A program made the position numbers and the translations under genes. A stretch of DNA of 64,000 nucleotides from Chiloscyllium plagiosum. Its lineage: Eukaryota. The first letter of the stretch is position 1. The number at the start of each line of letters is the position of its first letter. Below are positions 3,731 to 59,499 of the stretch, piece by piece. The stretch spans positions 5,211,643 to 5,275,642 of the forward strand of contig NC_057755.1 in NCBI RefSeq assembly GCF_004010195.1. The letters run 5' to 3'. The notes below the pieces were generated by a model. The model saw only the letters and a program-made list of their open reading frames with translations. It searched no databases and was not told the origin of the DNA.

Positions 3731-3879
3731 AGTGGGAACTGGTGGGTCAGTGATGTAATTTGAATATTTAAAGTGAGAAAACACTTAGTTAAGGACCAAT
3801 CAGAATGACATCAGAATCGGTACCAATGCACTTCTGCAGTTTTTCTATGTGTTTAATTTCCATCCCTCTTCAGACACCC

Positions 3880-4380
3880 AATGACAGTTCAAGTCTGTGC
3901 TCCCTGTTCCTGATCCCCAGGACATACATCGATAAAAACATCGACTGCACCTGGAGGAATATTAACCCGGTGTTAGATGCTCTTTGGTCTAACCGAAACA
4001 GGTCGTCTTCCAGAACAATGAGTTGACACCGATAGAGTGTTGCAGTCTGGCCCATTCGAAGGATTAGGATTATGTGATCTGGGATGCATGAAAGTTCGCA
4101 GCACTTGCCTCCAAGGTGCATAGGGGAAAGATCACCAGTTAAGGTCTTTCAGCCAATACACAATGAGAAGCTGTTCAATTATCAAGACATTCCAATGCCT
4201 CAAGTCCTTTTAAATATAAGCTTTGTGTGTAAGATGTGTCTTGGTTTTTTTTTAGATAGATTCAAACTCCTACGAATTGGTTTTCTTGTTATGCTATTGC
4301 ACAGAACTGTATTGCATTTATAACTCGCAATGTGTAAGTATCTTTTTAAATAAATAAGATATATTTTTATTAAGATTTTA
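3880..4380 (+). mobile_element. Tx1-type (L1 clade) LINE 3' end
   Basis: Degenerate ORF2 C-terminus NIDCTWRNINPVLDALWSNRN...ECCSLAHSKD.DYVIWDA, followed by an AT-rich 3' UTR. Confidence 0.7.
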
Positions 4381-7488: not shown

Positions 7489-7790
7489 ACAGTGTGGATA
7501 CAGGCCGCCCGGCCCAACAAGTCCACACCGACCCGCCGAAGCGCACCCACCCAGACCCATTCCCCTACATTTACCCCTGCACCTAACACTACAGGCAATT
7601 TAGCGTGGCCAATTCACCTAACCTGCACATTTTTGGACTATGGGAGGAAGCCGGAGCACCCGGAGGAAACCTACGCAGACACGGGGAGAATGTGCAAACT
7701 CCACACAGTCGGTCGCCTGAGGCGGGCATTGAACCCGGGTCTCTGGCGCTGTGAGGCAGCAGTGCTAACCACTGTGCCACCATGCCGCCC
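7489..7790 (-). mobile_element. HE1-type SINE, well preserved
   Basis: GGGCGGCATGGTGGCACAGTGGTTAGCACTGCTGCCTCACAGCGCCAGAGACCCGGGTTCAATGCCC head, V-SINE core and CR1-like tail. Confidence 0.92.
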
Positions 7791-16950: not shown

Positions 16951-17882
16951 TTATGTTGGACGCAAAATTTTGCAGTGTTTATTGAATGCATTGACCATTG
17001 TCAAGAAAAGCGTCCAAGGGAATGCAAGCACTTTATGTAGCTCTGACCTGAACTTAGTTTGCGTCATAGCATAGATGCATGTGTTTGCACAAGAACTCAA
17101 ATGGGTGAGCAGATGTCCGGTCTCAGTGGCAATGTATGGGGAGGAAATATAATGTATTTGATCAAGCACAGCCAAGGTGTTGACCATAGAATTGACTGCA
17201 GATGCCAGATTTAGCAGTATAAGACTGCCCGACACCATGAAGAGAAGAACAATCGATTTTCTTCGAGTTTTAATTTCTTGATCGCTCTGGTTTTCAGACT
17301 GCTGAGCCCGAAGTCTTCTGCGACGAATATTGCTTACTACAATGTGTCTGGCAGTCAAAACATTAAATAGTAATATGAAAAAGAAAGGAATCCATGTAAC
17401 TAAAAGATTTTGCAACTTCTCATAAGCTGCACCTATTGTTGATTTGAGAAAATTCACACTGGGACGGTATCCCCAGTGAATATTGTTAATTGTGCGTTGG
17501 TGTTCATATGCAAACCAAAATGGAATGTTCTCTAAGTACACCAGCACCGTGACAATTATTATGACCGTAGATGCAGTTCTCACTGTGCTATACTTGGTTT
17601 TATGCTTCACACAGCATATAGCTATAAATCGGTCAAAGGTGAAGCAGACTGTGTACCACACTGACAGATATACATTAGTGCAGCTCATGTACAATATAAG
17701 TTTGATGACCACAGTGTAGGAGAGGAATGAATATGGAAACCGTCTGCTCAAAATTTGAAACAAAATAACGTTAATGAGCATGACCAGCAGATCTGCTGTC
17801 ACCATCGCCAACATGTAGATTGAAATACATTTGGAAAGGCCGCAATTTCCTCTCAAGAGAATCACAGTTGCCAGGAGGATTG
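16951..17882 (-). CDS. Exon 2 (main exon) of intact GPR139/GPR142-like class A GPCR; joins exon 1 at 20039-20108 to give 333 aa
   Basis: Polypyrimidine tract and CTGCAG acceptor at 17883, then an open frame to TAA at 16951. 7TM pattern with RGNCGLSKC, ADLLV, SVWYTVCFTFDRFIAICC, RRKS and CANTCIYAMTQTKFR. 70+932=1002 nt, in frame. Confidence 0.93.
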
Positions 17883-18399
17883 CTGCAGGAAAAGAAGAAA
17901 AATATGTAAGTTAGCGAACACAGAACAATAGAATAGATGATGGACCGAGCAGCATTATCACCAAGTTATTAATTCAGAAATCCAAATAATATTTTAGGGG
18001 TTTTGGTTCAAATCTGAATTAGACATTTGAATTTGAATTCATAAAGTTTGAATACAATAAACGTCAAGAGCTAAGAATCAAATGATGAAAATGGAATAAT
18101 TGTCAATTGTCAGAGGAAATCCCATTTGGTTCAGAAATGCCCTTTTAAAAAGAAACTGCTACCCTTACCTGCGATTCAGGACCACAGCTTTGTGGTTGTT
18201 TCTCAACTGCTGTCTGGGCAGTGAGGAATGGGCAATAAATGCTTGCCTATCTTGTGCCACACACCTCTCATGTGGAATAAAATATTAGATTTAATGACAT
18301 TTCACCTGCCAATGTGTAGATGCTGTCCAGTGCATTATGAATTGTGGGGTGTCCTATTGTGATAATCAAAATGGTTAACGATAATCCTTTTGAAACAAC

Positions 18400-22569: not shown

Positions 22570-24055
22570 GCTAGATTATGTTCAGGCCCTTAGCAGGAGC
22601 ATTAGTGTTACACACGACCAGGTCAGAGGTTGGAGCAAAACATTGCCAGGGTGGGATGGTTCTTTGATAATGCTGGCTGCCTTTCCTGGCCAGCGGGCCT
22701 GAGTAGATGGATTCTACGTACGGGAGGTTGGCCTTTGTGATTGTTCGGGCCGAGTTCACACTGTTACTCTCTGTAACAGTCTCCAATCTTAAATGGTACA
22801 GTTGCCATACCAGGTAGTGATACACCCAGACAGAATAATGCTCTCGATGGCGCACCTATAAAAGTTGGCAAAGGTATTCACCGTCAAGCCAAATTTCCTC
22901 AGCTGCCTGACGAAGAACAGATATTGCTGAGCCTTTGTAACCAGTGTGTTCACATGACGAGTCCAAGAAAGCTTGTTGTAGATGACCACACCCAGGAGCA
23001 TGACATTCTCCACTCGTTCCACCTCTGTGCTGTTAATGTGTGTGTGTGTGTGTGTGGGGGGGGGGCAATCAGTGACATCCCGTTGAAAGTCAATAATGAG
23101 TTCCTTGGTTTTGCCTGCATTCAGAGCGAGTTTGTTCTCAGTGCACCATTTTTCCAGGTATTCCACCTCCTCTCTGTAGTCTATTTTATTGCCATCTGAG
23201 ATTCGACCGACTATGGTGGTGTCATCAGTGAACTTGCAAATGGCATTACTCTGCTATTTGGCGACACAGTCTTGGGTATACAGTGAGTACAGTAGCGGGC
23301 TGAGTGCAGGCCCCAAAGGGCTCCAGTGTGGAGTGTTAGTGAGGATGAAATATTGCCCCCAATCTCTACTGATTGTGGCCTGTGGATCAGGAAACTGAGG
23401 ATCCAGTTCCAGAGAGTGGGGTGCAGTCTGAGATCACTAAGTTTAGTAATCAGTCTCCAGGAGAGAATAGTGTTGAAGGCTGAACTGTAGTCAATGAGTA
23501 GGATTCTTATGTCGCTGTTCTTGGTGTCAAGATGTTCTAGGGAGGAGTGAAGGGCAAGTGATATGGCATCTGACGTGGCTTTGTTGGTCCGATAGGCAAA
23601 TTGGAATGGCTCAAGTGTAGAGGGGAGGCTGGAGTTGATTAATGACATGACCAGCCTTTCAAAGCACTTCATGACCACTTAAGTTAGGGCCACTGGGCGG
23701 TAGTCATTGAGATATGCTGCATGAGCCTTCTTCGGCACAGGGATGATGTTAGCCCTGTTGAAACAGGCAGGGACAGTGGCCTGTTGCAGGGAGAGGGTGA
23801 AGATGCTCGGGAAGACCTCTGCCAGTGGAAATGTGCGTGCTCTGAGTGCACGGCCTGGTACTCTGTCTGGTCCCATCGCTTTCCTTGGATTCACACGAAG
23901 GAAAACTGATGTGACCTCTGATGCAGTGACTGTTGAGATAGTTTCGTCAGGACTTGTCGGAATAGGTGTTACCTCTCCGCCGAAATTTAGCTCAAAGCGA
24001 GAGTAGGAGGCGTTGAGACGATCTGGGAAGGGATGTGTCATCGTCTGCTATCTTG
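22570..24055 (-). mobile_element. Rex1/Babar-type non-LTR retrotransposon, 5'-truncated, frameshifted RT
   Basis: NPRKAMGPDRVPGRALR, IIPVPKK...LNDYRPVALT, MKCFERLV, QFAYRTN, LLIDYSSAFNTI, KFTDD, LNAGKTKELIIDF, NFYRCAIESI. Confidence 0.9.
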
Positions 24056-25095: not shown

Positions 25096-25372
25096 GAAGC
25101 ACGGTGGCTCAGTGGTAAGCACTGCTGTCTCACAGCGCCAGGGCCGCGTTATCAATTCTAGCCTCGCTCAACGTTCTCCCCCGTGCCTGCGTGGGTTTGC
25201 TCCGGATTCCTCGCACAGTCTAAAAATGTGCAGGTTAAGTGAAGTGGCCATGCTAAAATTGCCTGCTGCATTAGTCAGAAGGGAAATGGTTCTGGGTGGA
25301 TGACTCTTCTAAGGGTCTGTGTGTACTTGTTGGGCTGAAGGGCCTGTTTCCACACTTATGGGATCTAATCTT
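25096..25372 (+). mobile_element. HE1-type SINE
   Basis: GCACGGTGGCTCAGTGGTAAGCACTGCTGTCTCACAGCGCCAGGG head and GGGCTGAAGGGCCTGTTTCCACAC tail. Confidence 0.85.
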
Positions 25373-25839
25373 GTAAAACACGTTTCATTATTAGTGCAAG
25401 TAAATCAAATACATATGAAAATAATATTGACATTTGAATCACAGGCGAGTGTTTTCCAAATAACAGAGGGTGTTGAAAACATGGAATGTGCATCCAGAGA
25501 AGGTGGTGCCCTCAGTTTAATGTGACATCCAAACAAAGTTGAGAAATATTCACTTGTGCCTGGAATCCTTAACCTTAACCGTGAGATCTCCTGAAGGAAT
25601 TGATCTGCAACTGGTGCAACATAGAGGGTGGGAGATTGCAAGCCTGCTGTTTCACAAAAAGAAGATTTGTTCAATTTGTAGGGATTAGGATAAAAATGAT
25701 TTCAAAATATCGTTCAAGTTTCACCAGCAAAGCTTACAAATAGCTTTTATTGGCGTTCACCTCCCATTGTGAACAGTGTTTGACAGCAGAGAGCTTCACT
25801 TGTCTGATACATTACTGGGGCTTTGTTTTGGTGAAATAG

Positions 25840-26099
25840 GAGGCAGCCTGAAGGGCTGGGGAAAGACCACTGTGTAACATCTGCCTACCTAAGAAGAACA
25901 GGGGGCCCACGCAGTCATTTGGGCTCTGCTGACGTCTCAGCTAAATATATGGACATATGAGTGATAAACGTACAAACCTGTATATACAAATGATAAATTC
26001 CGATCTCTGTATGCAAATGTTTATGTATGTGTGGCATGACCAACTGTACAGACCATCAAATTATTTTATGAATAAAGTATATTTTTGACATAAATAAAA
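25840..26099 (+). mobile_element. Tx1-type LINE extreme 3' end
   Basis: ORF2 terminus TGG GGA AAG ACC ACT GTG TAA (WGKTTV*, 25857-25877), then a 3' UTR ending TTTTATGAATAAAGTATATTTTTGA and a short A-rich tail. Homologous to the element at 3880-4380. Confidence 0.7.
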
Positions 26100-26226
26100 G
26101 TAGTTCTCCCAGGACGAGGCAATCCCATTGCACTTCGGGTGTGTTGACGCCTGCGATGTCCACAAATGTGGGATACTCGACTGCAAAATTTGTCGTAATG
26201 GGGGACTGCATTCGCGCTCTCCCCTG
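26100..26226 (+). ncRNA. RNU1: U1 snRNA copy, 5'-truncated (about nt 38-164), non-functional
   Basis: Colinear with vertebrate U1: TCCCAGGACGAGGC, CCATTGCACTTCGG (U1A loop), CCTGCGAT...CAAATGTGGGATACTCGACTGC, Sm site AATTTGTC, GGGGGACTGCATTCGCGCTCTCCCCTG. Lacks the 5' ATACTTACCTG end. Confidence 0.93.
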
Positions 26227-27524
26227 GTTTACAAGCAAAAAGCAGATGTTCCAATAGATGGCGCTCACTTGTGTTTCCCACAGCTTCCTTATGTACTGCC
26301 TGTCTCTGTTCAACAAGTTGACAGATATATGCTGCACGTCTTACTTCATCCTGCTATAAACCACTATGTTGAAACCTTTTGACAAGAGCAACAAGCCAAG
26401 CCTTCAAATTACCAAATCTATTTCCCTCTATTTACTGCCTTTTGCTCAAAATGCCTCTTTAAACAATTTATCAGAGAGAGGGAAAACAGCCCAGCCTATT
26501 CAGCCTCTCCTGTAGCTCAAATCCTCCAACCCTGGCAACCTCCTTGTTATTCTTTTCTGAATCCTTTCAAGTTTCACAACATCCTTCCAATATGAAGGAG
26601 ACCAGATTGCACGGGTGATGTCCGGGGAACAACCCTCGGTAGTAAAGTACTTACAATCGCCACAGCAGAATGTTAGTGAGAATGAAAAGTAGATCTGATG
26701 TTGCCTTTGCCAACAGACAGCGCCTTGTGCAGTTAGAGAGGTCACACATTCCTCACGCGAGAACCAAAATCAGCAGGAAATTAACAGAAAGAGTCAGAAG
26801 GTAAAATACAAATCAGAAATTAATTGATCAAACATCCTCTGCATCTGCCCACAGAGCAATGGAAGGTCTTCACATCTAACTGAGTCAGGGAATTAACAGA
26901 TGGCAAAGGGCCATCGTTTGAAGGTGAAAGGCAAAAGTTTGGTGGTGATTTGAGGAAAGGTCTTTCACTCAGATAATGGTGGGGTTCTTGTAATTCAGTG
27001 CTTGGAGGCTAGTTGAGGTGGGAAACATCACAACTTTTAAAAACTACCTGGGACGAGACTAGATTTCATTCGGCTTTGGTAGCACAAGCTTGATGGACCT
27101 TTTCTGTACAATGGTCATAGAGTCATAATCATTGAGAGGTACAGCATGGAAACAGACCCTTCAGTCCAACCCGTCCATGCCAACTTCTGGGAGATAGGTT
27201 GGGAAGGGTACAATTTTCCTGAAATAAATCAAAGCCTGTGCATACTGGAAATATGAAACAGAAACAGAAATAGCTGGCGAAACCCAACAGGTATGGTAGC
27301 ATCTGTGGAGACAGAAACAGAATTAATCAAATCATTCTTCATCTGAAGACATTCGTCTGAGCATTTGTCAAGGAACTCGAAACATCAACTTGGTTTTCTC
27401 CTCATTCCAGGCCCTCTCATTTCAAATGGAGTGATTTCCAATAAGAAATTGAGATTTCTAGTGTTGATATTTATTGGCTATGAAGCATTTGTTTGTCGGC
27501 TCTAAGCATACTGGGCTCGATTGG

Positions 27525-30500
27525 GGTCATAGATATCTTGAGCATGGAAACAGGCACTTTGGTCCAAATCGTCCATGCCGACCAGATATTCTATCATCAT
27601 CTACTCCCATTTGGCTCCATATCCCTTGAAACCTTTCCCCTTCAATTACCCATTCAGTTGCTTTGTAAATGTTGTAATTTCATCATTCTCCATCATTTCC
27701 TCTGGTAGTTCATTCCATACATGTGCTAGCCTTTGTGTGAAAGAAGTTTTACCTTTTAAATCTTTCCTCTCCTATCCATGACCTTGGGATTTTATAAACC
27801 TCTATACGGTCATCCTAGCCTCCAATGCTTCATTAAGACCAGACTTATTCAACGTTTACCAATAGTTCAAACCCTCCAAACCTGGCAACATCCTTGCAAA
27901 TATTTAATGAACCCTTTCAAGTTTTACTCCGTGCATCCTTTCGAAGTGAGACCAGAATTACACACAGTTTTCCCATAAGTGGCCTAACGAATGTCCTGTA
28001 CAGCTGCAACATGACCACAATTCATATAATAAATGTTCTAACTAATAAAGGAGCAGATATTGAACGTCTTCTTCACTATTCCACCGACCAAAGTCTCGAC
28101 TTCTAAGGAACTATGAAACTGCACTTCAAGGTCTCTTTATTCAGCAACACTCCCCAGGAACTTACCATGAAGTTAGTGAGATGTGATTTCCAATGTGCAG
28201 AACCATGTTGAATATCTCTATTCAGTCCTTGCCTATACAAATGCAGGGTACATATAAATCCGTCAGGATTCCTTCCAACATTTGCCGACCACAAATGTCA
28301 CGCTCATTGGTCTATAGTTCCCCGACTTTTCCTTACCACCTTTTTTGAAATAGTGGTACTACATTAGTCAACCTCCAGTCTTCCGACACCTCATTTGTGA
28401 CTATTGATTATCCAAGTATTTTAACAATGGGCCTGCAATCACTTCCCTAGTTTTCCACAGATTTCGAGGGTACACCTGATCAGGTCTTGCGGATTTATCC
28501 AACTTAATGTATTTTATGACATCTATCACCTCCTCCTGTGTTATATGGAAATGTTTTAAGATGTCACCATCTATTTCCGCCCATTCTATATCCTCCATGC
28601 CTTTCTCCACACGAAACACTGATGCAAAATCCGCGTTTAGTATTCACCCCGCCCCCCACCGTCTCCTGCAATTCCACACAGAGGCTGTCTTGATGATATT
28701 TGAGGGGACTCATTCTCTCCTGGGAAGCCCTTTTGTCCTTAATGTATTTATGAAATCCCCTTAGATTCTCCATAACCTTATTTGCTAAATTTATCTTATG
28801 TCCCATTTTGCATTCATTACATTACATTACAGTGTGGAAACAGGCCCTTCGGCCCAACAAGTCCACACCGACCCGCCGAAGCGCAACCCACCCATACCCC
28901 TACATTTACCCCTTACCTAACAGTATGGGCAATTTAGCATGGCCAATTCACCTGACCTGCACATCTTTGGACTGTCCATCTTAAGTACACCCCTGCTGTC
29001 CATCTTAAGTACACCCCTACTCTTCAATGGATTCACTCAAACTCTGCTATCTACACTTGATGTATGCTTCATTCTTTTTCTGAACCAAAACCTAGACTTA
29101 ACAGCTTTATCTTTGCCCAAACAGGAATGTACTCTTTCTGGACTCTCGTTATCTCATGTATGAAGGCTTCTCATTTTCCAGCTGTTCCTTTTCGTGAGAA
29201 CATCGCCCTTCAATTAACGTTTGAAATTTCTTGCCTAATGGTCTTCCTCTAATCTGGAACTTTAACATTTAGATTCAGTCGATACTTTTCTGTCATTATT
29301 TTAAACTAACAGAACTTAAGTCTCTGACCCCAAACTGCTCCCCCAACTATTCCTCGGTCACTTGCCCTGCCTTCTTTGGAGGTCAGGTTTTGCACATTCT
29401 CTTGAAAATACATCCACATCCTGAATCAGAAAATTTTAATAGGCAAACTTAACAAATTCTTTTCCATCCAAGCCCTCAATAATGTGGAAGTCCCACTCTA
29501 TCTTTGGAAACTTAAAATCACTTACAATTACACACTACTATTCTTACAATTAACTGAGATCCCTTTACAAATGTGTTTCTCTATTTCCTGCTGACTCTTG
29601 AGGGGTCTGTCGTACAGTCCCAATAAGGTAATCAGCTCAATCTTATTGCTCAGTTCCAAACAAATAACTAGATGTATTCCCAAGAATATCTTCGGTAAGT
29701 GCAGCCAAAATGTAATCACTTATCAAAAAGCAAATCCCCCTCTTCTCTTGTATCCATTCTTTCCTTCCTATAGGATTTCTACCTTGCAAACTTAATCTGC
29801 CGGCCATATCCATCCCTGAACCACATCTTTGTAATTGCTATGACATTCCAATCTCATGTTTCTAACAACATCCTCAGTTCATTTGTCTTCCCTGTTGGGC
29901 ATCTTGTTTAGAAATAAATGCAATTTAATTTTTCAGTCCTGCTTTATTCTCTGCTTTTTGCCTGCCTGCCCTGAATTTTCCCAACTGTACCAATCTCAGT
30001 CTGTTCTCTTTCCTCACTATCTCCCTGGCCAAACCAACAGCCCCCCCCCCCCCCGCCACCCCAAGCCACTCCATCCTTAATAGTTAAATATTCCTGAGCA
30101 GCTCTCGCAAATCTTCCTGAGATTTAATTAGTTCTCTTCCAATTCAGGTGCAATCTGTCCTCCTTATACTCGTCATTACACCACAGAAAAGTTTCCAAAT
30201 ATCCAAAAATGTGAACTCTTCTCCCCTGCATCAGCTCCTTAGCTACTTATGCATCTGCTCTATCCTGCTATTCCTACACTCAGCTGCCCGTGGCAACAAG
30301 AGTAATCCAGATATTACAAAGCGCAAGACTCTCCTTTCAATTTCATGCCTAACCTCTTACACGCTCCCTTCAGAATTTCATCCTTTTTCCTTTCTATGTC
30401 GTCAGTTCCAATGTAGAAAACGACCTACTGTTGTCCTACACCTCTTTGAGAATACTCTGTACTCTCTCCGAGATATCTTTGGCACCAGTGAGGCAACATG

Positions 30501-30930
30501 TGCTCTTTGGCAAAGAAACGTCTGTCTGTGTCTCTGACGAGAGAGTCCCCTATCACAGTCGATCAGAACCTGACGTGACTCTCTTTACATTCAAACCAGT
30601 CTTGATGCCAGAAATGTGGCTGTTCATGCTCCATTCCCCTCAGAGTCCATCACCCAGTACGTTTTCAAAAACAGCATACCTGTTCAAGATAGGGTTAGCC
30701 ACATTAGAATCCTGCACTACCTATCCCCCTCTCCTATCTTTCTTGGAGCTAACCCATCTACCTGACTGTATCTGTGGTTTTTCACTCTTCCTAGAACGGC
30801 CATCCATCACACAGCCCAGCTACTGGAAATTCCTTATCACTTCGAACTGTTGCTTCAATCGATTCATGCAATCTGATAGGATTCACAACCAAACACACTT
30901 ACTGAAGCCATAACCATCAGTAGCATGGAA
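27525..30930 (-). mobile_element. Decayed CR1/HER1 LINE with ORF1, endonuclease, partial RT and 3' end (internal deletions)
   Basis: ITLLGLYDRPLKSQQEIEKHICK, KINLANKVMENLRGFHKYIKDKR and KLDKSARPDQVYPR. ORF1 remnant is colinear with 43700-44500. Confidence 0.85.
28812..28974 (-). mobile_element. 5'-truncated young HE1 SINE with (GTAAT)n tail, nested in CR1
   Basis: CATTACATTACATTAC tail. Body is nearly identical to the 7489-7640 part of the other copy. Confidence 0.85.
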
Positions 30931-35289: not shown

Positions 35290-35770
35290 TAAACGTCAAC
35301 ACAAAGGATTTGGACGTTAGTCTTCCCCTATTCTGCTTTGACTGCAAATGACTGATTCTTACTGCACTCCTGAGCACATCGTCCTGATATTTGTGCCACA
35401 CTAGTTCGAGGTCAACTCCTTGCTCTGGAAAATCTATTAAATTCTGGCGAAGAGCGTCTTTCACTGAGTTCTTCATCCTTCAGGCAGTATTGATATTTTC
35501 TTGACCTGCATCCAAGGGGAAGAATGTGATGAACACAGAATCCTGCATCACGGAACTGCTCAGAATGAACCTCACAATAAAAATACTTGTGGCTTTCTCC
35601 AGACTTCTTTTGCAAAGTTATTTTCCAGTAGGATGTGTGAGATAGTCTCGAAACTCATGCAGCTTACTTCGAGGGCAGCGTGAGGTGATGGGAAGCGTCT
35701 GGCTGTACATTAAGGATCTCACAAGTTGTGCCCTTCTCACCACCGGCCAAGTGATATCTTGGTTCTTGTT
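35290..35770 (-). mobile_element. Tx1-type LINE ORF2 C-terminal fragment
   Basis: HKYFYCEVHSEQF, KNSVKDALRQNL, HKYQDDVLRSA. Confidence 0.65.
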
Positions 35771-36499
35771 GCAAACTCCTAGAGATGAGGAATTCTGCCA
35801 AGTGACTTTGACACTTTCCTGTTTTATTGCTGGTCCAGACTGAAATGATTAATTATTTCCCTTCATGTGCATGTTCCTTCCATATTAGCCATTTCTTATC
35901 CTCTGCCAATTCTTTTAGAAAGGTATTATTGCCAAGTTATTCATCAATGTCTCCTTGTTCTCTTCATTTAGATTCTGGATCGCAGTTTCAGGCTGAATTT
36001 CTTCACTGTCCTATTGAATAAACAATTCTACCATTTTACAGTCACTCCTTAAAATGTACCCCAAACAATAAGATTGTAAATTAATACCATATCATTGCAT
36101 GTAACCACTCCACGATATACTCTTCTCCCGGTTCTTGCTCAACATGTTGGTCTAAACAACATCCAATAAAGACTTCAGGAAATTGTCCTATTTATAGTTT
36201 GGTTTGTCAAACAAATATGCATATCACAGTCAAACATGATTGCAGTTGTATAGTGCATGCATCGTGTTAAATGCCTTCCTGCATGTCCCCAGTACTGTTT
36301 GGATCCTATAGACAAACCACACCAGCACATACTGTTGTTTGGGATTTCCTCCCACCTACCATACAGGTTCTGCTAATTATGTGCATGTTAACATAGGGCA
36401 GTAGGGCGCAAGAAATCTGCAGCACTTATTTAGTGGAGGAGAGACAGGAGGCGATTGCTGTATCAGGGTAGATGGAATTAAAGGGATTTATTCTTTGTT

Positions 36500-42324: not shown

Positions 42325-44880
42325 AGTCCTAGAGATGTGCAGGTCCTGGGTATTTATCCACCTTTAACAGTTTCAAGACATCCAGCACTTTCTCCTCTGT
42401 AATCTGGACATTTGGCAAGGTGTCACCATACATTTCCTTACAGTCTAAATTTTCCATATCCTTTCCCACAATAAATACTGATGCAAAATATTCATTTAAT
42501 ATCTTCCCCATTTACTGTGGCTCCACACAAAGGCCACCTGGCTGATCTTTGAGGGGCCCTATTCTCTCCCTAGTTACCCTTTGACCTTAACATATTTGTA
42601 AAATCCTTTTGGATTCTCCTTAATTCTACTTGCCAACGCTATCTCATGTCCTCTTTTTGCCCTCCTACTTTCCCTCTTAATTATACCTCTACTTCCTTTA
42701 TACTCTTCCAAGGATTCACTCGATCTATCCTGTCTATACCTGACATTTGCTTCCTTCTTTTTCTTAACCAAACCCTCAATGTCTTTAGTCATCCAGCATT
42801 CCCTATACCTACCAGGCTTACCTTACACCCTGACAGGAATATACTTTCTCTGGATTCTTGTTGTCTCATTTCTGAAGGCTTCCCATTTTCCAGCCGTCCC
42901 TTTACCTGCGAACATCTGTCTCCAATCACATCTCGAAAATTCTTGCCTAATACCGTCAAAAATGGCCTTTCTCCAATTTAGAACTTCAACTTTTAGATCT
43001 GGTCTATCCTTTTCCATCACGATTTTAAAACGAATAGAATTATGGTCGCTGGCCCCAAAGTGCTCCACCACTGACAGCTCAGTTACCTGCCCTGCCTTAT
43101 TTCCCAAGAGTCGATCGCGTTTTGCACCTTCTCTAGTAGGTACATCCACATACTGAATCAGAAAATAGTCTTGTACGCACTTATGAAATTCCTCTCTAAC
43201 TAAACCTTTAACACTATGGCAGTCCCAGTCGATGTTTGGAAAGTTGAAATCCCCTACCATAACTACCCTATTATTCTTACAGATAGCTGAGATCTCTTTT
43301 CAAGTTTGTTTCTCAATTTCCCTCTGACTATTAGGTGGTCTCTTGTACAATCCCAATAAGGTGATCATCCCTTTCTTATTTCTCAGTTCCACCCAAATAA
43401 CTTTCCGGGAATATTCTCCTTCAGCACAGCTGTAATGCTATCCCATATCAAAAATGCCACTCTCCCTCCTCTCTTGGCTCCCTTTCTATCCTCCTGTAGC
43501 ATTTGTATCCAGGAACATTAAGCTGCCAGTCCTGCCCATCCCTGAGCCATATTTCTGTAATTGCTATGATATCCCAGTCTAATGTGACGAACCATGCCCT
43601 AGGTTCATCTGCCTTCCCTGTTAGACACCTTGCATTGAAATAAATGCAGTTTAATGTATTAGTCTACCTTATCCCTGCCTGCCCTGACTGTTGCGAATAC
43701 TTGTCCCATACACCAGCTCCTCAGCCATGCATTCATATGCTCTATCCACCTATTCCTGCTCTCACTGGGAGTAATCCAGAAATTACTAATTTTGAGAACC
43801 TCCTTTTTAAATTTCTGTTTAACTCTCTGTAATCTCCTTTCAGAATCTGAACATTTTGCCTTCCTATATCGTTGGTTGCATTGTGGACAGTGACCTCTTG
43901 CTGAGCCCTCTTCCCCGTGAGAACATTCTGCACCCTCTCTGAGACATTCTTGATCCTGGCACCAGGGAAACGACACACCATTCTGCTTTTTCTCTTCTGG
44001 CCACAGAAACGTCTGTCTGTACCTCGGACTACAGAATCACCTAACACAATTGATCTCTTGGAAGCCGAGGTACCCCTCGTTGCATTAGAGCCAATCTCAA
44101 TATCAGAATCTTGGCTGTTCGTGCTTCGTTCCCCTGAGAATCCATCACCCCTACATTTTCCAAAACAATATACCTGTTAGAAGTGGGTATATCCACAAAA
44201 GACTCCTGCCCTAGTTGCCGACCTCTCTCACCCTTCCTGGAGTTAACCCATCTAGGTGACTGTATCTGAGACTTCCCCCCCTTCCTATAACTGCCATCCA
44301 TCATATACTGTTGCTGTTGCGAATGCCTCATCGCTTCTATCTGTATCTCCAACCGATCCACCCGATCTGATAAGATTCGCATCCAAAAGCATTTTTGGCA
44401 GATATAATCCGCAGTAACTCTTAAACTCTCTTTAAACTCCCACATCTGACAAAAAGTACATATCACTGCAAAGGCGAGTTTTGCTCCTTCACAATCTACA
44501 GACCCAGAAAATAACACCGTCTTACTCCTCTACAAAACACTTCACCAGGTTAAATTAATAGTTATGGCTTATATTTTCATTTTAATCAAGAGTCTTATCT
44601 CCAAAAACATATAATCAAGAAAGAACCACTGTACTCACTAAAACAGCCTTTCCCTTGGACAGATGTAAAACAATAATTAACTTATCTGATTCTGTGCTGT
44701 GAACTTCGCCCAAACCAGTTCCTCCAAGATTATTTGTGAAATTCACTGTTTGTTAATTTTCCCAGCTGCACTCCGATGTCCAGCGACACACGAATTCAAA
44801 AACAGCAAAGGCAGTAACTGTGCAGATTCTCTCTCTCTCTCTCTCTCCTGCACTCTCCTCACCATGTGCTTCCGTTCATT
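42325..44880 (-). mobile_element. CR1/HER1 LINE 5' half: 5' UTR, ORF1 (zinc finger, coiled coil, SGNH esterase), APE endonuclease; truncated before the RT core
   Basis: CTFCQMWE...CQKC, LGDSVVRGTDRRFCG, VGDFNFPNIDW...GASDHNSIRF, LNEYFASVF, KVDKYPGP. Confidence 0.92.
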
Positions 44881-52120: not shown

Positions 52121-52433
52121 GAATTTAGAATATTAAGTCTAAAATTGACACAGGATTAAAAATATTTTTCTTTGTTGTTGTAGTTCGTTTATAACAGCTG
52201 ATCAAGTTAGAGGCATAACGGACATTGATTTGAAATGTTTGGTAAACTTTCTCTTTGTCATTTTATATTTATACATGAATAACTTTTAATGGTATAGTAT
52301 GTAGGTTTGCTAATTGATGTAGATTTACAAAAGTCTAGCACTGGAGAAAGGAGATAACTGTAATTTTTAGCTTTTGTAACGCTACTCTTCACTAATTTTT
52401 TTAATGGGACTATTTGATTTCTTTCCTTTACAG

Positions 52434-53362
52434 CAAATCTAGTCACAACTGTGATTCTCTCTCGGGGTAAATGTGGTCTCTCTAAGTGTGTCACCAGCTA
52501 TCTGATGGGCATGGCTCTGGCAGATCTACTGGTTGTTCTCATTGATCTGATACTAAGACACATTCCAGTTGTGTATTGGCTGAAGTTCATGTTCCTATGG
52601 TATGTGCCTGTATGTAATATACATGCTGTCTTCCTCTATGCTGCGACAGACTGTTCTGTCTGGTTCACCGTTACTTTCACCTTTGACCGTTTTGCAGCTA
52701 TTTGCTGTCAGGAGTTCAAAACAGTGTATTGCACAGAGAAAACTGCAGCTGTTGTTCTTGGAACAATCACTGTGCTATTCTGTTCAAAGAACATTTTCTG
52801 GTATTTTCTGTACACGGGAGAATATCTGCTTGCTAATTATCCCTGGTTTTGCTTCATACCAAGCAGTTTACTTTTCTCAGAGGTCTGGATAGTAATTGAA
52901 TTCCTCCATTATATTTTAAACCCATTAATTCCATTTGTCCTTGTTCTGCTGTTCAACGTATTGACAGTCAGGTATATTGTAGTGGCCAGCAGATCCCGAA
53001 AGAAACTGAAGGGTCACAGCAGATCTGAGAGAGTCTGGGACCCAGAGATGAACAATCGAAGGAAATCAATGAAATTGCTGTTTGTTATATCTGGGAATTT
53101 TGTTCTATTATGGGCGGTGTTTCTTATTTATTTTGTTTGGAGACGTATGTGGTATTTAGGATATAAATCTGTACGGATGCCCGCATTAGTTAGAGAAATT
53201 GGATTCATGCTTCAGCTCCTGAGTTGCTGCACAAATACCTGTACTTATGCTATGACCCAGGCTAAATTCCGAGAGCAATTGAAGAATGGTTTGAAATATC
53301 CATTTAATCTAATTGCGAAAATATTTAAGTCATCAGATGGAATAAAAGCGTCCTGCAGTTAA
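52434..53362 (+). CDS. Exon 2 (main exon) of intact GPR139/GPR142-like class A GPCR; 341 aa with exon 50512-50608
   Basis: TTTCTTTCCTTTACAG acceptor. ANLVTTVILSRGKCGLSKC, MALADLLV, PVCN, SVWFTVTFTFDRFAAICC, PWFCF, DPEMNNRRKS, CCTNTCTYAMTQAKFR. 97+929=1026 nt, in frame. Confidence 0.95.
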
Positions 53363-54114: not shown

Positions 54115-57100
54115 CCATCCATCCTCTCACTCTGTGCATCTCTCTCTATATATCCCACCCTCACTCTGTGCGCCTCTCATGATCTATACCCCCTCACTCT
54201 GTGCATGTCTCACTATGTTTTACCCTCTCACTCTGTGCATCTCCCTCTATATATCCCACCCTCACTCTGTGCATCTCTCACTCTTTATCCCCCCTCACTC
54301 TGCGCATCTCTCACCATCTATCCCTCTCTCGCTCCATGCATCTCTCACGACCTATCCCACCTCACTCTGTGCGTCTCTTACTGTATATCCCAGCTTCATT
54401 CTGTGAATCTCTCCCTATCTTTACCTCCTCACTCTGTGCATCCCCCACTAGCTATACCCGCTCGCTCTATGCATCTCTTACTATCTATCCCACCCTCACT
54501 CTGTGTGTCTCTCACTGTCTATCCCGCCCTCATTCTGTGTTTCTCTCACTCTCGATACACCTTCACCCTGTTCGACTCTCACTATCTACCTCCCCTCATT
54601 CTATGTGTCTCTCAAAATCTATACCCCCTCATTCTATGCGTCTCTCACTATCTATACCCCGTCATTCTGTGCGTCTCTCACTATCTTTCCCCTTTCACTC
54701 TATGCATCTCTCACTATCGATCCACCCTCACTCTTTGCGTCTCTCACTATCTATCCATCCTAACTCTGTGCATCTCTCACTATCTATACCCCCTCACTCT
54801 GTGCATGTATCACCCTGTATTACCATCTCACTCTGTGNNNNNNNNNNNNNNNNNNNNNNNNNNNNNNNNNNNNNNNNNNNNNNNNNNNNNNNNNNNNNNN
54901 NNNNNNNNNNNNNNNNNNNNNNNNNNNNNNNNNNNNNNNNNNNNNNNNNNNNNNNNNNNNNNNNNNNNNNNNNNNNNNNNNNNNNNNNNNNNNNNNNNNN
55001 NNNNNNNNNNNNNNNNNNNNNNNNNNNNNNNNNNNNNNNNNNNNNNNNNNNNNNNNNNNNNNNNNNNNNNNNNNNNNNNNNNNNNNNNNNNNNNNNNNNN
55101 NNNNNNNNNNNNNNNNNNNNNNNNNNNNNNNNNNNNNNNNNNNNNNNNNNNNNNNNNNNNNNNNNNNNNNNNNNNNNNNNNNNNNNNNNNNNNNNNNNNN
55201 NNNNNNNNNNNNNNNNNNNNNNNNNNNNNNNNNNNNNNNNNNNNNNNNNNNNNNNNNNNNNNNNNNNNNNNNNNNNNNNNNNNNNNNNNNNNNNNNNNNN
55301 NNNNNNNNNNNNNNNNNNNNNNNNNNNNNNNNNNNNNTGTGCGTCTTTCACGATCTATCCTCCCTCACTCTGTGCATCTCTCACTATCTCTCCCACCCTC
55401 ACTCTTTGCATCTCTCACTCTCTATTCCACCCTTACTCTGTGCGTCTCTCACTATCTATCCCCATCAGTCCTTGCATCTCTCACTACCTATCCACCTCAT
55501 CTGTGCGTTTCTCACTATCTATCACATTTCACTCTGTGTGTCTCTCACTATCTATCTCACCTCACTCTATGCATCTCACACTATCTATCCTTCCTTCACT
55601 CTGTGCGTTTAACACTATTTAGCCCCCCTCACGATGTGCATCTCTCACAATCTATCCTCATCTCTCTGTTTGTCTATCACTATCTCTCCCCTCTCACTCT
55701 GTGGGTCTCTCATGATCCATCCCACCTCACTCTGTGCGTCTCTCACTATCTATCATATCCTTACTCCGTGCGTCTCTCAATATCTATCTTCCCTCATCAG
55801 TGTGTCTGTGACAAGTTATCCCATGTTCACTCTGTGCGGCTCTCACTATCTATCTCCCCTCACTCCGTGCATCACTTACTCTCGACCCCCATACTCTTTG
55901 CATCTCTCACCATATTTCTCCCGTCATTCTAACCGTCTCTGACTATCTTTGCCCCATCACTCTGTGGGCCTCTCACGATTTATCCACCGCATCACTCCGT
56001 GTATCTCTCACCATCTATCCCACCCTCACTTTGTGGGTCTCGCACTATCTATCCCCTCTCACTCTGTGCGTCTCTCATGATCTATCCTCCCTCACTCTGT
56101 GCATCTCTCACTATCTATCCCACCCTTACTCTGTGTGTCTCTCACTATTTCTCCCATCCTCACTCCGGGCATCTCTCACTATCTATTCCTCTCACACTCT
56201 GTTCACCTCTACTAACTATCCCACCCTCACTCTGTGTCCCTCACTATCTATCCCCCGTCACTCTGTGCGTCTCTCACTATCTATCCCACCCTCATCTGTG
56301 TGTCTGTAAGTATTTATCCAATATTCATTCTGTGCGTCTCTCACTATCTATCACCCCTCACTCTGTACAGCTCTTACTCTTAATCCCCCATACTCTTTGC
56401 GTCTCTCACCATCTATCTCCCTTCATTCTAACCGTCTCTCACTATCTTTGCCCCCTCACTCTGTGAGTCTCTCACGATTTATCCACCGCATCAGTCCGTG
56501 TATATCTCACCATCTATCACACCCTCACTCTGTGCGTCTCTCACTATCTATCCCTCCTCACTTTGTGCGTCTCTCACGATCTATCCTCCCTCACTCTGTG
56601 CGTCTCTACTATCTATCCCATCCTTACTCTGTGCGTCTCTCACTATTTCTCTCATCCTCACTCAGTGCGTCTCTCACAATAAATCCCTCTCACACTCTGT
56701 TCATCTCTACTAACTATCCCACCCTCACTCTGTGTCCCTCACTATCTCTGCCCCCTCACTCTGTGCATCTCTCACTATCTATCCCATCCTCATCTGTGTG
56801 TCTGCAGCTATTTATCCCCTGTTCACTCTGTGCGTCTCTCACTATCTATCTCCCCTCACTCTGTGCATCTCTTACTCTTAATCGCCATACTCTTTGCGTC
56901 TCTCACCATATATCTCCCTTCATTCTAACCGTCTCTCACTACGTTTGCCTCATCACTCTGTGAGACTCTCACGATGTATCGACCGCATCACTCCATGTAT
57001 CTCTCACTATCTATCCCACCCTCACTTTGTGCGTCTCTCACTATCTATCCCTCCCTCACTCTATTCATCTCTCACTGACTATCCTACCTCCACTCTGTGC

Positions 57101-58812
57101 GTCTCTCACTTTCTATCCCCCTCACTCTGTGCGTCTCTCACGATCTATCCTCCCTCTCTCTGTGCGTCTCTCACTATCTATCCCTCCCACACTCTGTTCA
57201 TCTCTACTAACTATCCCACCCTCACTCTGTGTCCCTCACTATCTCTCCCCCCTCACTCTGTGCGTCTCTCACTATCTATTCCACCCTCACTCTGTGCATC
57301 TCACACTATTTACCTGTACTTTCTCCGTGCATCTCTCACTATCTCTCTCCCCTCACTCTATGCATCTCTCACTATCGATACCGCATAACTCTGTGCATCT
57401 TCCACAATCTATTCCCTTCTCTCTTTGTCTCTCTCATTATCTATCCCCCTTCAGTATGTGCATCTCTCACTCACTATCCCCCCTCAGTCTGTGCGTCTCT
57501 CACTATCTATCTCCCCTCATTATATGCTTTTCTCACTGTCTATACCCCTTCACTGTGGGCGTCTCTCACTATCTATCCATTCACTCTTTGCGTCTCTCAC
57601 TATCAATCCGCCCTTACTCTGTGCGTCTCTCACTATCTATAACCCCTCACTTTGTGCATTCTCTCACTATCTAGCCCACCCTCACTCTATGCATGTACCA
57701 CTATCTATCCCATGCTCACTCTGTCCGTCTCTCACTATCTATTTCCCCTCATTATATTCTTCTCTCCCTGTCTATACCATTTCACTGTGGGCGTCTCTCA
57801 CTATCTATACCCACACTCTATGCGTCTCTCACTATCTCTCCCCTCACTCTGTGCGTCTCTCACTACCTATCCACCTAATTAAAAGCGCCTATCACTATCT
57901 ATACACCCTCGCTCTCTGCATCACTCACTACCTATCCCACCCTCACTCTGTGCATCTCTCTCTATTTAACCCCATCGCTGTGCGTCTCTTACTATCCACA
58001 CCCTCTCACTCTGTGCGTCTTTCACTATCTATCATCCCTCAAACTGTGCATCTCTCACTTTCTATCCCACCCTCACTCTGTGCATCTCTCACTATCTATC
58101 CCCCACACACTGTGAGTCTCTCACTATCTATTCCACGCTCAGTCTGTGCATCTCTCATTATCTAACCCCCTCACGCCGTGCTTCTCTCAGTACCTATCCT
58201 CCCTCACTCTGCGTTTCTCTCACTGTCTATCCGTCCTCACTCTCTGTATCTCTCACTACCTAGCTCCCTCACTCTGTGCATCTCTCATTACCTATCCTCC
58301 TTCACTCTGTGTGTCTCTCACTATCGATACCCCCTCCTCTGTGCACTTCTCACTATCTAACCCCTACACTCTCTGCGTCTCTCAATACCTATCCCACGCT
58401 CACTCTCTGCATCTCTCACTATCTATCCTCCTCACTCTGTGTCTATCCCTATTGATTCCCCCTCACTCTATGTGTCTCTTCCGATTGATTTCCCCCCTCA
58501 CTCTGAAGGTCTCTCACTATCAATCCCCCCACTCTGTTCATTTCTCATTATCTGTCCACTTCTCCTTCTGTGTGTCTCTCCCACTATCTTTCCATCCCAT
58601 CATTCTGTGTGTCTGCCTTACTATCTATCCACCCCTGCACAGTGTGGGTTTCTCACTTTCTATACATCTTCTCACTCAGTGCGTCTCTCACTTTCAATTG
58701 CCCCTCACTCTGTGCATCACTCACTGTCAATCCAACCTCTCATTTTTTGGGTCTCTCACTATCTATTCTCCTTTACTCTGTTTGTCGCTCACTATCTATC
58801 CACCCTCACTCT
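54115..58812. repeat. Satellite/minisatellite array, ~33-34 bp unit (CTCACTCTGTGCGTCTCTCACTATCTATCCCACC), with gap 54838-55337
   Basis: Unit is visible throughout the array, with a higher-order period of ~498 bp in the middle. Confidence 0.95.
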
Positions 58813-59499
58813 GTGTTTGTGTGTGTGTATGTATGTGTGTGTGTGTGTTTGTGTGTTTGTGTGTGTGTGTGTGTGCCCATCGCTCTGTCTGTCTGTCTTC
58901 CTCCCCCTTATTATCTGCCTTTCTCTCTATATCTGTCCAATTTTCTTTGTCTCTCCATTTACGTGTCTGACCCTGGCAGCCTCTGCATCTTTTTTTCCTT
59001 TGTCTCTACCTCCTATCCCTCTGTCACACACTCTCTATGACAGCCTCTCTGTACTTATCTCTCTCTCTCTTCTGTCTCTGATTCTCTTCCTCTCTCCTTC
59101 TCTCTGTCTCGTGCAGCCTCTCATTGTTTCTTTCTCTGTCTCGTCTCTTTCTGTCCTTCGCACACTTTATCTCTCTTCTCTCAGTCACACATTCCCCTGA
59201 TAAATAGTCCATATTAACAAATCTCTTTCCGTGGGTCTGTTTTCAACAAGATCTCAGCTTTTCCACAATGACTGTGATAGTTCTGCACATTACTGCAGAG
59301 CAGACAGCTCGATGCAAACAAACAAAGGGATTCCTTCAGCAAAACATTGTGAAATTCCTTTCTCATCACCAGATGGTCACCAAGTTCCACAGGTTTCCTT
59401 CTCCTTCTATTCTAACTTAATTTCACGTCGCCAAAGGCAGCAAATGTTAAGATCAAATTGACACTGTCCCCTGTGACCGCCTCTACATAACCCACTCCA

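What the first reader, a model, noticed from the sequence alone, without database searches (positions are those of the whole stretch)
25840..26226. Tx1-type LINE 3' end joined directly to U1 snRNA at about nt 35-38: possible U1-targeting retrotransposon
Seen: a Tx1-like ORF2 end (WGKTTV*), 3' UTR, AATAAA and short A tail run without a spacer into U1 sequence that starts in stem-loop I and continues to the exact U1 3' end. The U1 5' end is absent upstream. Known: Tx1-group elements are often sequence-specific for multicopy small RNA genes, and Keno inserts into U2 snRNA genes. Inference: this is either a site-specific insertion into a U1 gene or a copy that retrotransposed with 3'-transduced U1 flank. 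The order (LINE first, then the U1 3' part) is the reverse of ordinary template-switch snRNA-LINE chimeras.
Basis: partly seen in the sequence, partly recalled or inferred. Interest (0 to 1): 0.72.

Follow-up and report, generated by a model that had tools for sequence, protein, structure and literature searches.

The report
Shark LINE tail inside U1 gene
A short piece of a very common shark jumping gene, related to elements that normally aim at the U2 spliceosomal RNA gene, sits in a dead copy of the U1 gene at a spot that resembles its U2 landing site; most copies of the family land elsewhere, so this is probably a side target and not a U1-specific element.

Summary
A 243-nt, 5'-truncated Tx1-type LINE end (25857-26099) runs straight into U1 nt 38-164 (26100-26226). 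U1 nt 1-37 and any target-site duplication are missing.

The family is not U1-specific. In three shark DNA runs, depth falls to about 2-4% across the junction, and 62-123 contigs per run leave the tail into mixed flanks. One contig shows tandem copies separated by the 20-nt Keno target, U2 nt 39-58 (19 of 20 letters), so the family behaves as a loosened Keno-type element.

The U1 piece keeps a partial 3' box and a flank that other U1 copies share, so it comes from a genomic U1 gene, not a mature-RNA copy. Its junction carries the Keno core GTTC-YY at the same offset as in U2 (chance about 0.3%, defined after the fact). A second in-register LINE-U1 contig and two looser links exist, but duplication could explain them.

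Best reading (0.5): insertion at a look-alike site in a U1 gene, with loss of the 5' side. A U1-aimed sublineage is not excluded. The scan has noted LINEs in U1 genes in other genomes and Keno-type elements in this one.

The parts
25450..25856 (.). 5' flank: low-copy repeated sequence. Paralogues lack the LINE here and run on into other sequence. No U1 5' end, no PSE or octamer in it.
   Evidence: tables 2 and 8: depth about 114-192 against about 16 single-copy in X1; records 4 and 5 end at 25855 with 125 and 57 unaligned letters beyond..
25857..25877 (+). Last six codons and stop of a Tx1-type ORF2 (WGKTTV*); 5' truncation point of the LINE piece
   Evidence: table 7: family loose ends before 25857 in X1, X13 and X21 encode the preceding ORF2 residues. 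Homologues.
25878..26087 (+). LINE 3' UTR with poly(A) signal AATAAA at 26071-26076
   Evidence: depth 8,000-630,000 in DNA runs
26088..26099 (+). Decayed poly(A) tail
   Evidence: table 3 (26089 and 26095 read A in other copies); table 7 (235 RNA reads go on in poly(A) behind 26099)
26100..26226 (+). U1 snRNA nt 38-164, dead copy with one change in the Sm site. Starts with the Keno-like core GTTC-YY at +4.
   Evidence: (by eye, 19 of 127 differ from human U1); table 3 (26194 reads G in other U1 copies)
26227..26246 (+). Partial snRNA 3' box: AAARRYAGA at 26238-26246, GTTT displaced upstream
   Evidence: background 1.3e-4 per base; consensus from PMC5493778
26227..26394 (+). Downstream flank shared with other U1-bearing copies; no second poly(A)
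   Evidence: tables 2, 3, 8 (X9 records 21 and 22, X13 record 16 cross the U1 end into this flank)

Best explanation
A high-copy Tx1-type LINE of the Keno (U2-targeting) kind, with loosened specificity, inserted by target-primed reverse transcription into a genomic U1 gene copy.

- Inferred: its AP-type endonuclease nicked at U1 nt 37/38 because the bases behind the nick resemble its U2 site in the same register.
- Shown: the LINE tail joins U1 nt 38, and the U1 piece carries gene-type downstream flank.
- Shown: U1 nt 1-37, the promoter and any duplication are gone.
- Inferred: they were lost at insertion or by a later deletion ending at 25856/25857.

The locus is dead. The family is still transcribed and ends at its own poly(A) signal. 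U1 is at most a minor side target.
For: - Keno behaviour of the family: 1 of 3 rows table 5c has two tandem copies separated by 20 letters that match the printed Keno target, U2 39-58, at 19 of 20 (PMC6136364). This is the spacer expected from repeated insertion with a 20-nt duplication.
- Loose specificity: 63, 62 and 87+36 contigs leave at 26098-26099 with consensus agreement 0.35. Depth at 26121 is 2.4%, 3.5% and 3.3% of that at 26095.
- Site likeness: GTTC lies at +4, as in U2. Scored against the core shared by the two printed Keno-lineage targets (U2; Mariner-N4), 9 of 11 letters match with one gap. 0.08% of window sites score as well, about 0.25% over three offsets.
- Gene origin: partial 3' box and shared flank.
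- Recurrence: records 6 (X1) and 20 (X9) span 26068-26202 with 20 differences and 1 gap. Two joints link the tail to U1 nt ~101. Chance of an independent hit within 1 nt is 5e-5 to 1.5e-3.
- Age: the 5' junction is present in a second species (X9 record 19).
- Precedent: crocodilian Utopia at U2-like sites and the Tx1-Mar target shift.
Against: - The U2 spacer rests on one contig of depth 4.6, laid at 80% likeness, which may belong to another subfamily.
- The loose-end consensus is AT-rich, not U2-like, so most insertions may ignore this motif.
- The motif test was set up after seeing the junction. Human U1 has T where the window has the C of GTTC, and the shark ancestral base was not determined.
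- No duplication or U1 5' part survives, so the nick site is known from one side only.
- The extra LINE-U1 contigs could be duplicates of one event, since both flanks are low-copy repeats. Their letters were not seen (24 of 6431 pieces shown).
- The tool drops human-like reads, which can hide intact U1-flanked copies.
- The tree does not name Keno by any search.
Confidence: 0.5

Rival explanations
1. Chance insertion. One of thousands of dispersed copies happened to land in a U1 gene or pseudogene. The site likeness is incidental, and the other LINE-U1 contigs are segmental duplicates of this one event.
For: Flanks of the family are mixed and AT-rich. A hit anywhere in some U1 copy has an expectation of 0.005-0.16 per genome, not small for a scan of many windows. 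Both flanks are low-copy repeats, and the window is a duplicated GPCR region.
Against: Same-register core match. The second contig differs by 15% and leaves at 26202 without rejoining the window's 3' flank in the rows shown, which a plain duplicate should do. The 5' junction has single-copy depth in X9.
Confidence: 0.25
2. RNA-level join. A 5'-truncated U1 RNA copy was laid behind the LINE tail, either by a second insertion into a rebuilt target site (stack) or by a template jump from U1 RNA to the LINE RNA's tail.
For: Keno-lineage elements carry and mobilise U1/U2 pieces in crocodilians. Tandem copies exist in this family (table 5c). An unchecked note reports stacks with RNA copies in this genome (e1-8020005).
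Against: No poly(A) after U1 (longest A run 5). The flank behind U1 has a partial 3' box and is shared with other U1 copies. There is no spacer between tail and U1. Paralogues of the 5' flank do not join the 3' flank in the 15 of 19 joints shown. A random truncation would not recur in register.
Confidence: 0.1
3. A dedicated U1-specific subfamily, hidden among related families with other targets.
For: In-register second junction in two species, and two looser tail-U1 links. Against the subfamily-specific mid-UTR (25975), the U1 depth bound is weak: 17%, 50% and 9%. Human-like contigs are filtered out.
Against: Those bounds include free U1 genes. Only 2 of the 24 pieces shown bridge the junction, both at single-copy depth, and none in X13. 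No U1 1-37 or duplication upstream. A junction pattern found 0 in metagenome contigs, which is weak because the family was not found there at all.
Confidence: 0.08
4. 3' transduction. A source element inside a U1 gene was read through, and LINE end plus U1 3' part moved together to this place.
For: It explains the missing U1 5' end and the gene-type flank at once.
Against: No terminal poly(A) in 26200-27200 and no duplication around LINE plus U1. Family transcripts end at their own signal (235 of 548 laid reads run into poly(A) at 26099). It would still need a first insertion into U1.
Confidence: 0.07

Closest known systems
Keno (Tx1-clade, AP-endonuclease LINEs specific for U2 snRNA genes; Kojima and Fujiwara 2004, not read, as cited in PMC4494074, PMC4640811 and PMC6136364)
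   Same: AP-endonuclease/RT/zinc-finger ORF2 in a family proxy; poly(A) tail; a tandem pair spaced by U2 39-58; the proxy groups with teleost ORF2s BAD04856 and BAC82621 (that these are Keno proteins is my recall only).
   Different: Thousands of copies by rough depth, with mixed flanks instead of strict U2 residence; this copy is in U1 at nt 38, with no duplication and no 5' gene part.
Tx1-Mar and SINEU of crocodilians (PMC4494074; parts 1-4 of 5 of the text read, supplements not available)
   Same: Keno-related elements that moved to another target; the printed Mariner-N4 duplication shares GTTC..ATCAG with the U2 site; close traffic with U1/U2 sequence.
   Different: There U1/U2 pieces are 5' heads added from RNA; here U1 lies 3' of the tail and comes with gene flank.
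Crocodilian Utopia (PMC4640811; sections 6 and 8 and passages read)
   Same: A U2-nt-39 element with weakened specificity that lands at short U2-like sequences; loss of the gene's 5' part upstream of insertions is reported in Phytophthora.
   Different: Utopia has a restriction-like endonuclease; U1 is not named as a landing site in what I read.
Dada-U1 DNA transposons (PMC3706591; passages read)
   Same: Insert in U1 genes.
   Different: DDE transposons with 6-bp duplications at another U1 site; no poly(A) tail, no RT.

Membership tests
Tx1-type (L1 group) LINE | ORF2 with AP-type endonuclease, RT and C-terminal zinc finger | tested here: met
   By proxy only. P0091 (1138 aa; ends in the same motif as the window piece and the family's loose-end letters) has PF03372, PF00078 and PF13966. 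The window piece holds 6 codons.
Tx1-type (L1 group) LINE | Poly(A) tail and 5' truncation | tested here: met
   (tables 3, 7)
Tx1-type (L1 group) LINE | RT groups with named Tx1-clade elements | tested here: inconclusive
   Quick tree of 62 rows that I chose from 224 proteins. No row bears a Tx1 or Keno name in any call.
Keno | 3' flank starts at U2 nt 39 (family level) | tested here: met
   One contig: 20-letter spacer matching the printed target at 19 of 20
Keno | Strict residence in U2 genes | tested here: not met
   Mixed flanks, agreement 0.35; this copy is in U1
Keno | Phylogenetic placement with KenoDr1/KenoFr1 | tested here: inconclusive
   Proxy plus amphibian rows (SH-aLRT 99) are sister to a group holding BAD04856 and BAC82621 (joint support 97); the Keno names are recalled
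   Depth behind the junction 2.4-3.5% of tail depth; 62-123 contigs per run with other flanks. The bound is weaker for the narrow subfamily (9-50%).
   (this copy only; full-length copies could not be read)
   Records 6 and 20 and two joints; independence from duplication not shown
SINEU / snRNA-headed chimera | snRNA piece at the 5' end, followed by body and poly(A) | tested here: not met
   U1 lies 3' of the tail and has no poly(A) behind it
3' transduction | Second poly(A) after the carried flank, and a duplication around the whole | tested here: not met
Functional U1 snRNA gene | 5' splice-site-pairing end, PSE/DSE, intact Sm site, 3' box | tested here: not met
   5' end, PSE and upstream octamer absent; Sm-site change at 26194; 3' box partial

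The most novel reading that the evidence does not exclude
A shark sublineage of Keno has widened or shifted its endonuclease specificity from U2 nt 39 to the look-alike site at U1 nt 38 and has hit U1 genes there several times independently. This would be a target switch between two spliceosomal RNA genes, caught in progress. No U1-targeting LINE was found in the five literature searches run; Repbase and Dfam could not be searched.
Probability: 0.25. Interest if true: 0.6.

Novelty: new member of a known kind. Interest (0 to 1): 0.35.

Why it matters
Target-specific LINEs are studied as models of how an endonuclease changes its target and as possible insertion tools. A 2015 paper lists only Keno and Utopia (U2) and Dada (U1, U6) as snRNA-targeting elements; another figure legend names a U5 target. 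If U1 nt 38 is a repeated side target of a Keno-type enzyme, then U2, Mariner-N4 and U1 sites together define its recognition core and can be tested with a simple cleavage assay. If it is a single event, the locus is only a dead U1 copy and a dated insertion shared by two sharks.

Tried and rejected
- Whole genome: none is held for this window, so flanks could not be tabulated one by one.
- Junction pattern in metagenome contigs: 0. ORF2 C-terminal alignment in metagenome contigs: 180 pattern hits, 0 confirmed. LINE-end pattern in viral and prokaryote contigs: 0 and 0. These collections lack the family, so the blanks say nothing.
- Look-alike stretches in the scan's index: none for the junction or the 5' flank; no notes nearby.
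- A degenerate U1 5' end at about 25807-25822 was considered and rejected: paralogues differ there and the motif scan shows nothing.
- Folding the U1 piece was uninformative (z -1.44).
- Naming BAD04856 and BAC82621 as Keno failed in papers and supplements.
- The supplements of PMC4494074 could not be read; they list Tx1 flanks and may bear on novelty.
- No RNA holder was listed for the stretch. In about 2% of one RNA run no read lay on either flank, which is no evidence on this copy's expression.
- 4 of the 16 protein hits (P0006-P0009) were set aside as not LINE-like (three had unrelated Pfam families, one had none).
- The third Tx1 piece (35315-35821, minus strand) shows no recognisable family tail by eye and was not used.

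Full report
1. Observation. The window shows, without spacer, the last codons of a LINE ORF2 (WGKTTV*, 25857-25877), a 3' UTR, AATAAA (26071-26076), a decayed A tail (26088-26099) and U1 sequence. Rfam gives U1 at 26079-26226 with 65.9 bits and E 7.2e-16, just under the gathering score. By eye, 26100-26226 matches nt 38-164 of the human U1 printed in bioRxiv 2021.08.01.454689 (passages) with 19 differences and no gap. The U1 5' end is absent, and no other snRNA lies in the window. No duplication of 6 nt or more was found between the 5' junction and the end of the tail. Behind U1 only 6-7-mers with a mismatch turned up, and the longest A run in 26200-27200 is 5.

2. The LINE. The older piece at 3999-4139 found 16 proteins. 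Twelve are LINE ORF2 ends; of 10 looked up, 8 are from whale shark, 1 from horn shark and 1 is unnamed. Their ends match the letters by which family contigs leave the window at 25857 plus WGKTTV. A full-length relative, P0091, has AP-endonuclease, RT and zinc-finger domains. In a quick tree of 62 rows chosen from 224 proteins, it joins amphibian rows (SH-aLRT 99). Together they are sister to a group with the fugu and zebrafish ORF2s BAD04856 and BAC82621 (97). That those two are Keno proteins is my recall; no call confirmed it. The pieces at about 3862-4370 and 35315-35821 are older relatives with other UTRs; no U1 hit lies behind either.

3. Other copies. No genome is held, so I laid 4 of 24 listed runs on 25450-26470 at 80% likeness: DNA contigs of three organisms and one RNA run. 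Summed depth is only a rough guide, human-like records are dropped, and the tables show a part only (24 of 513 loose ends, 24 of 6431 pieces, 15 of 19 joints, 40 of 331 differences). The LINE piece has a depth hundreds to thousands of times single copy. Depth at 26121 is 2.4%, 3.5% and 3.3% of that at 26095, and this includes free U1 genes. Behind the tail, 63, 62 and 87+36 contigs run into other sequence with consensus agreement 0.35. The family is therefore not U1-specific. Against the narrower mid-UTR (25975) the bound is weaker: 17%, 50% and 9%. In the RNA run, 235 of 548 laid reads pass into poly(A) at 26099 and only 2 are 99% alike, so other copies are transcribed and stop at their own signal. 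A single-copy contig of the second species spans the 5' junction (record 19, 24 differences in 349), so the insertion predates that split.

4. The Keno link. One of the three rows of table 5c shows the tail, 20 letters, then a second truncated copy. The 20 letters match, at 19 of 20, the Keno target printed in PMC6136364 (passages), which is U2 nt 39-58. This is what repeated insertion at the U2 site with a 20-nt duplication leaves. PMC4640811 (sections 6 and 8) gives nt 39 as the shared Keno/Utopia site and describes crocodilian Utopia copies at short U2-like sequences outside U2. The evidence is one contig of depth 4.6 and may belong to a sister subfamily.

5. The U1 side is gene DNA. AAARRYAGA starts 12 nt after the U1 end (background 1.3e-4 per base). 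It matches the 3' half of the 3' box in PMC5493778 (passages); the GTTY half is displaced. Contigs of the other two species cross the U1 end into the same flank (records 16, 21, 22), and 7 contigs of summed depth 454 cover 26235 in X9. Both flanks are low-copy repeats of similar depth in X9 and X13. Paralogues of the 5' flank stop matching at 25855 and go on for up to 125 letters that fit nothing in the stretch. The simplest reading is a duplicated unit with a U1 gene, one member of which lost its promoter and nt 1-37 (inference; those letters were not seen).

6. Why this base. The window's U1 begins with GTTC at +4 from the join, as the U2 target does. The Mariner-N4 duplication printed for SINEU-3, which Keno-related Tx1-Mar is thought to mobilise (PMC4494074, parts 1-4 of 5 read), shares GTTC..ATCAG with U2. 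Scored against that shared core, the junction gets 9 of 11 with one gap; 0.08% of window sites do as well, about 0.25% over three offsets. The test was set up after the fact, and human U1 has T at the fourth position, so it is support and not proof.

7. Recurrence. Records 6 (X1) and 20 (X9) begin in the last 32 nt of the LINE and align through U1 to 26202 with 20 differences and 1 gap, then run on for 600 and 784 letters. Two joints link the tail to U1 nt ~101 (26088 to 26163 in both species; 26094 to 26164 in one), with short sides of 25-26 letters and unknown letters between. An independent hit within 1 nt has a chance of 5e-5 to 1.5e-3 (with assumed copy numbers and genome size). So these are either aimed insertions or duplicates of one event. 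The 15% difference and the failure to rejoin the 3' flank lean towards independence; the duplicated surroundings lean the other way. This is the open point.

8. Mechanism. Shown: LINE tail on U1 nt 38, gene-type flank, no duplication, mixed family flanks, one exact U2 spacer. From established knowledge of target-primed reverse transcription: the tail joins the DNA 3' of the first nick. Inferred: a loosened Keno-type endonuclease chose this site by likeness, and a deletion removed the 5' side. Confidence 0.5. Rivals: chance plus duplication 0.25, RNA-level join 0.1, U1-specific subfamily 0.08, 3' transduction 0.07.

9. What is known. It works like Keno or loosened Utopia. It fails strict Keno membership on U2 residence and is not a SINEU-type head. 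No U1-targeting LINE appeared in five searches; only the Dada-U1 DNA transposons did (PMC3706591 and PMC8869645, passages). Kojima and Fujiwara 2004, Repbase, Dfam and the supplements of PMC4494074 were not seen and may hold such a case. Other papers seen only as passages and adding nothing: PMC4889948, PMC3747384, PMC4275248. Unchecked notes of this scan report a U2-headed Keno-type copy and Tx1 stacks in this genome, and LINEs in U1 genes in other genomes; they are leads, not support.

10. Verdict. New member of a known kind; interest 0.35. A repeated U1 side target has probability about 0.25 and would merit 0.6.

Noticed in passing
run X1 contig, table 5c (26099 to 25899): Tandem LINE copies spaced by U2 nt 39-58: a sign of Keno-type U2 targeting in a shark.
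   Followed up: partly
run X9 contig, table 7 (before 26106): A strongly diverged U1-like 5' part that seems by eye to keep stem-loop I pairing; possibly a variant U1 gene.
   Followed up: no
window 16951-17910 (-) and 52418-53362 (+): Two open reading frames of rhodopsin-family GPCRs in a region with about 70%-alike duplicated blocks, e.g. 28481-30893 and 42340-44387.
   Followed up: partly
window 3862-4370 (+) and 35315-35821 (-): Two older, broken Tx1-type ORF2 ends of other subfamilies.
   Followed up: partly
window 23310-23987 (-): Broken RT piece of another LINE type, PF00078.
   Followed up: no
window 54126-58815: Tandem array of a 33-nt unit, about 21 plus 105 copies on either side of a 500-base N gap.
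   Followed up: no
window 25099-25356, 7489-7785, 28829-28975, 2189-2366: Copies of one short dispersed repeat; its likeness to a shark SINE is recalled, not tested.
   Followed up: no
window 25840-25856: The end of the 5' flank shares short words with the LINE letters upstream of the truncation point (by eye), a possible microhomology at the join.
   Followed up: no
window 26012-26019: An exact octamer motif lies in the LINE 3' UTR, about 90 nt before the U1 piece; probably chance.
   Followed up: no
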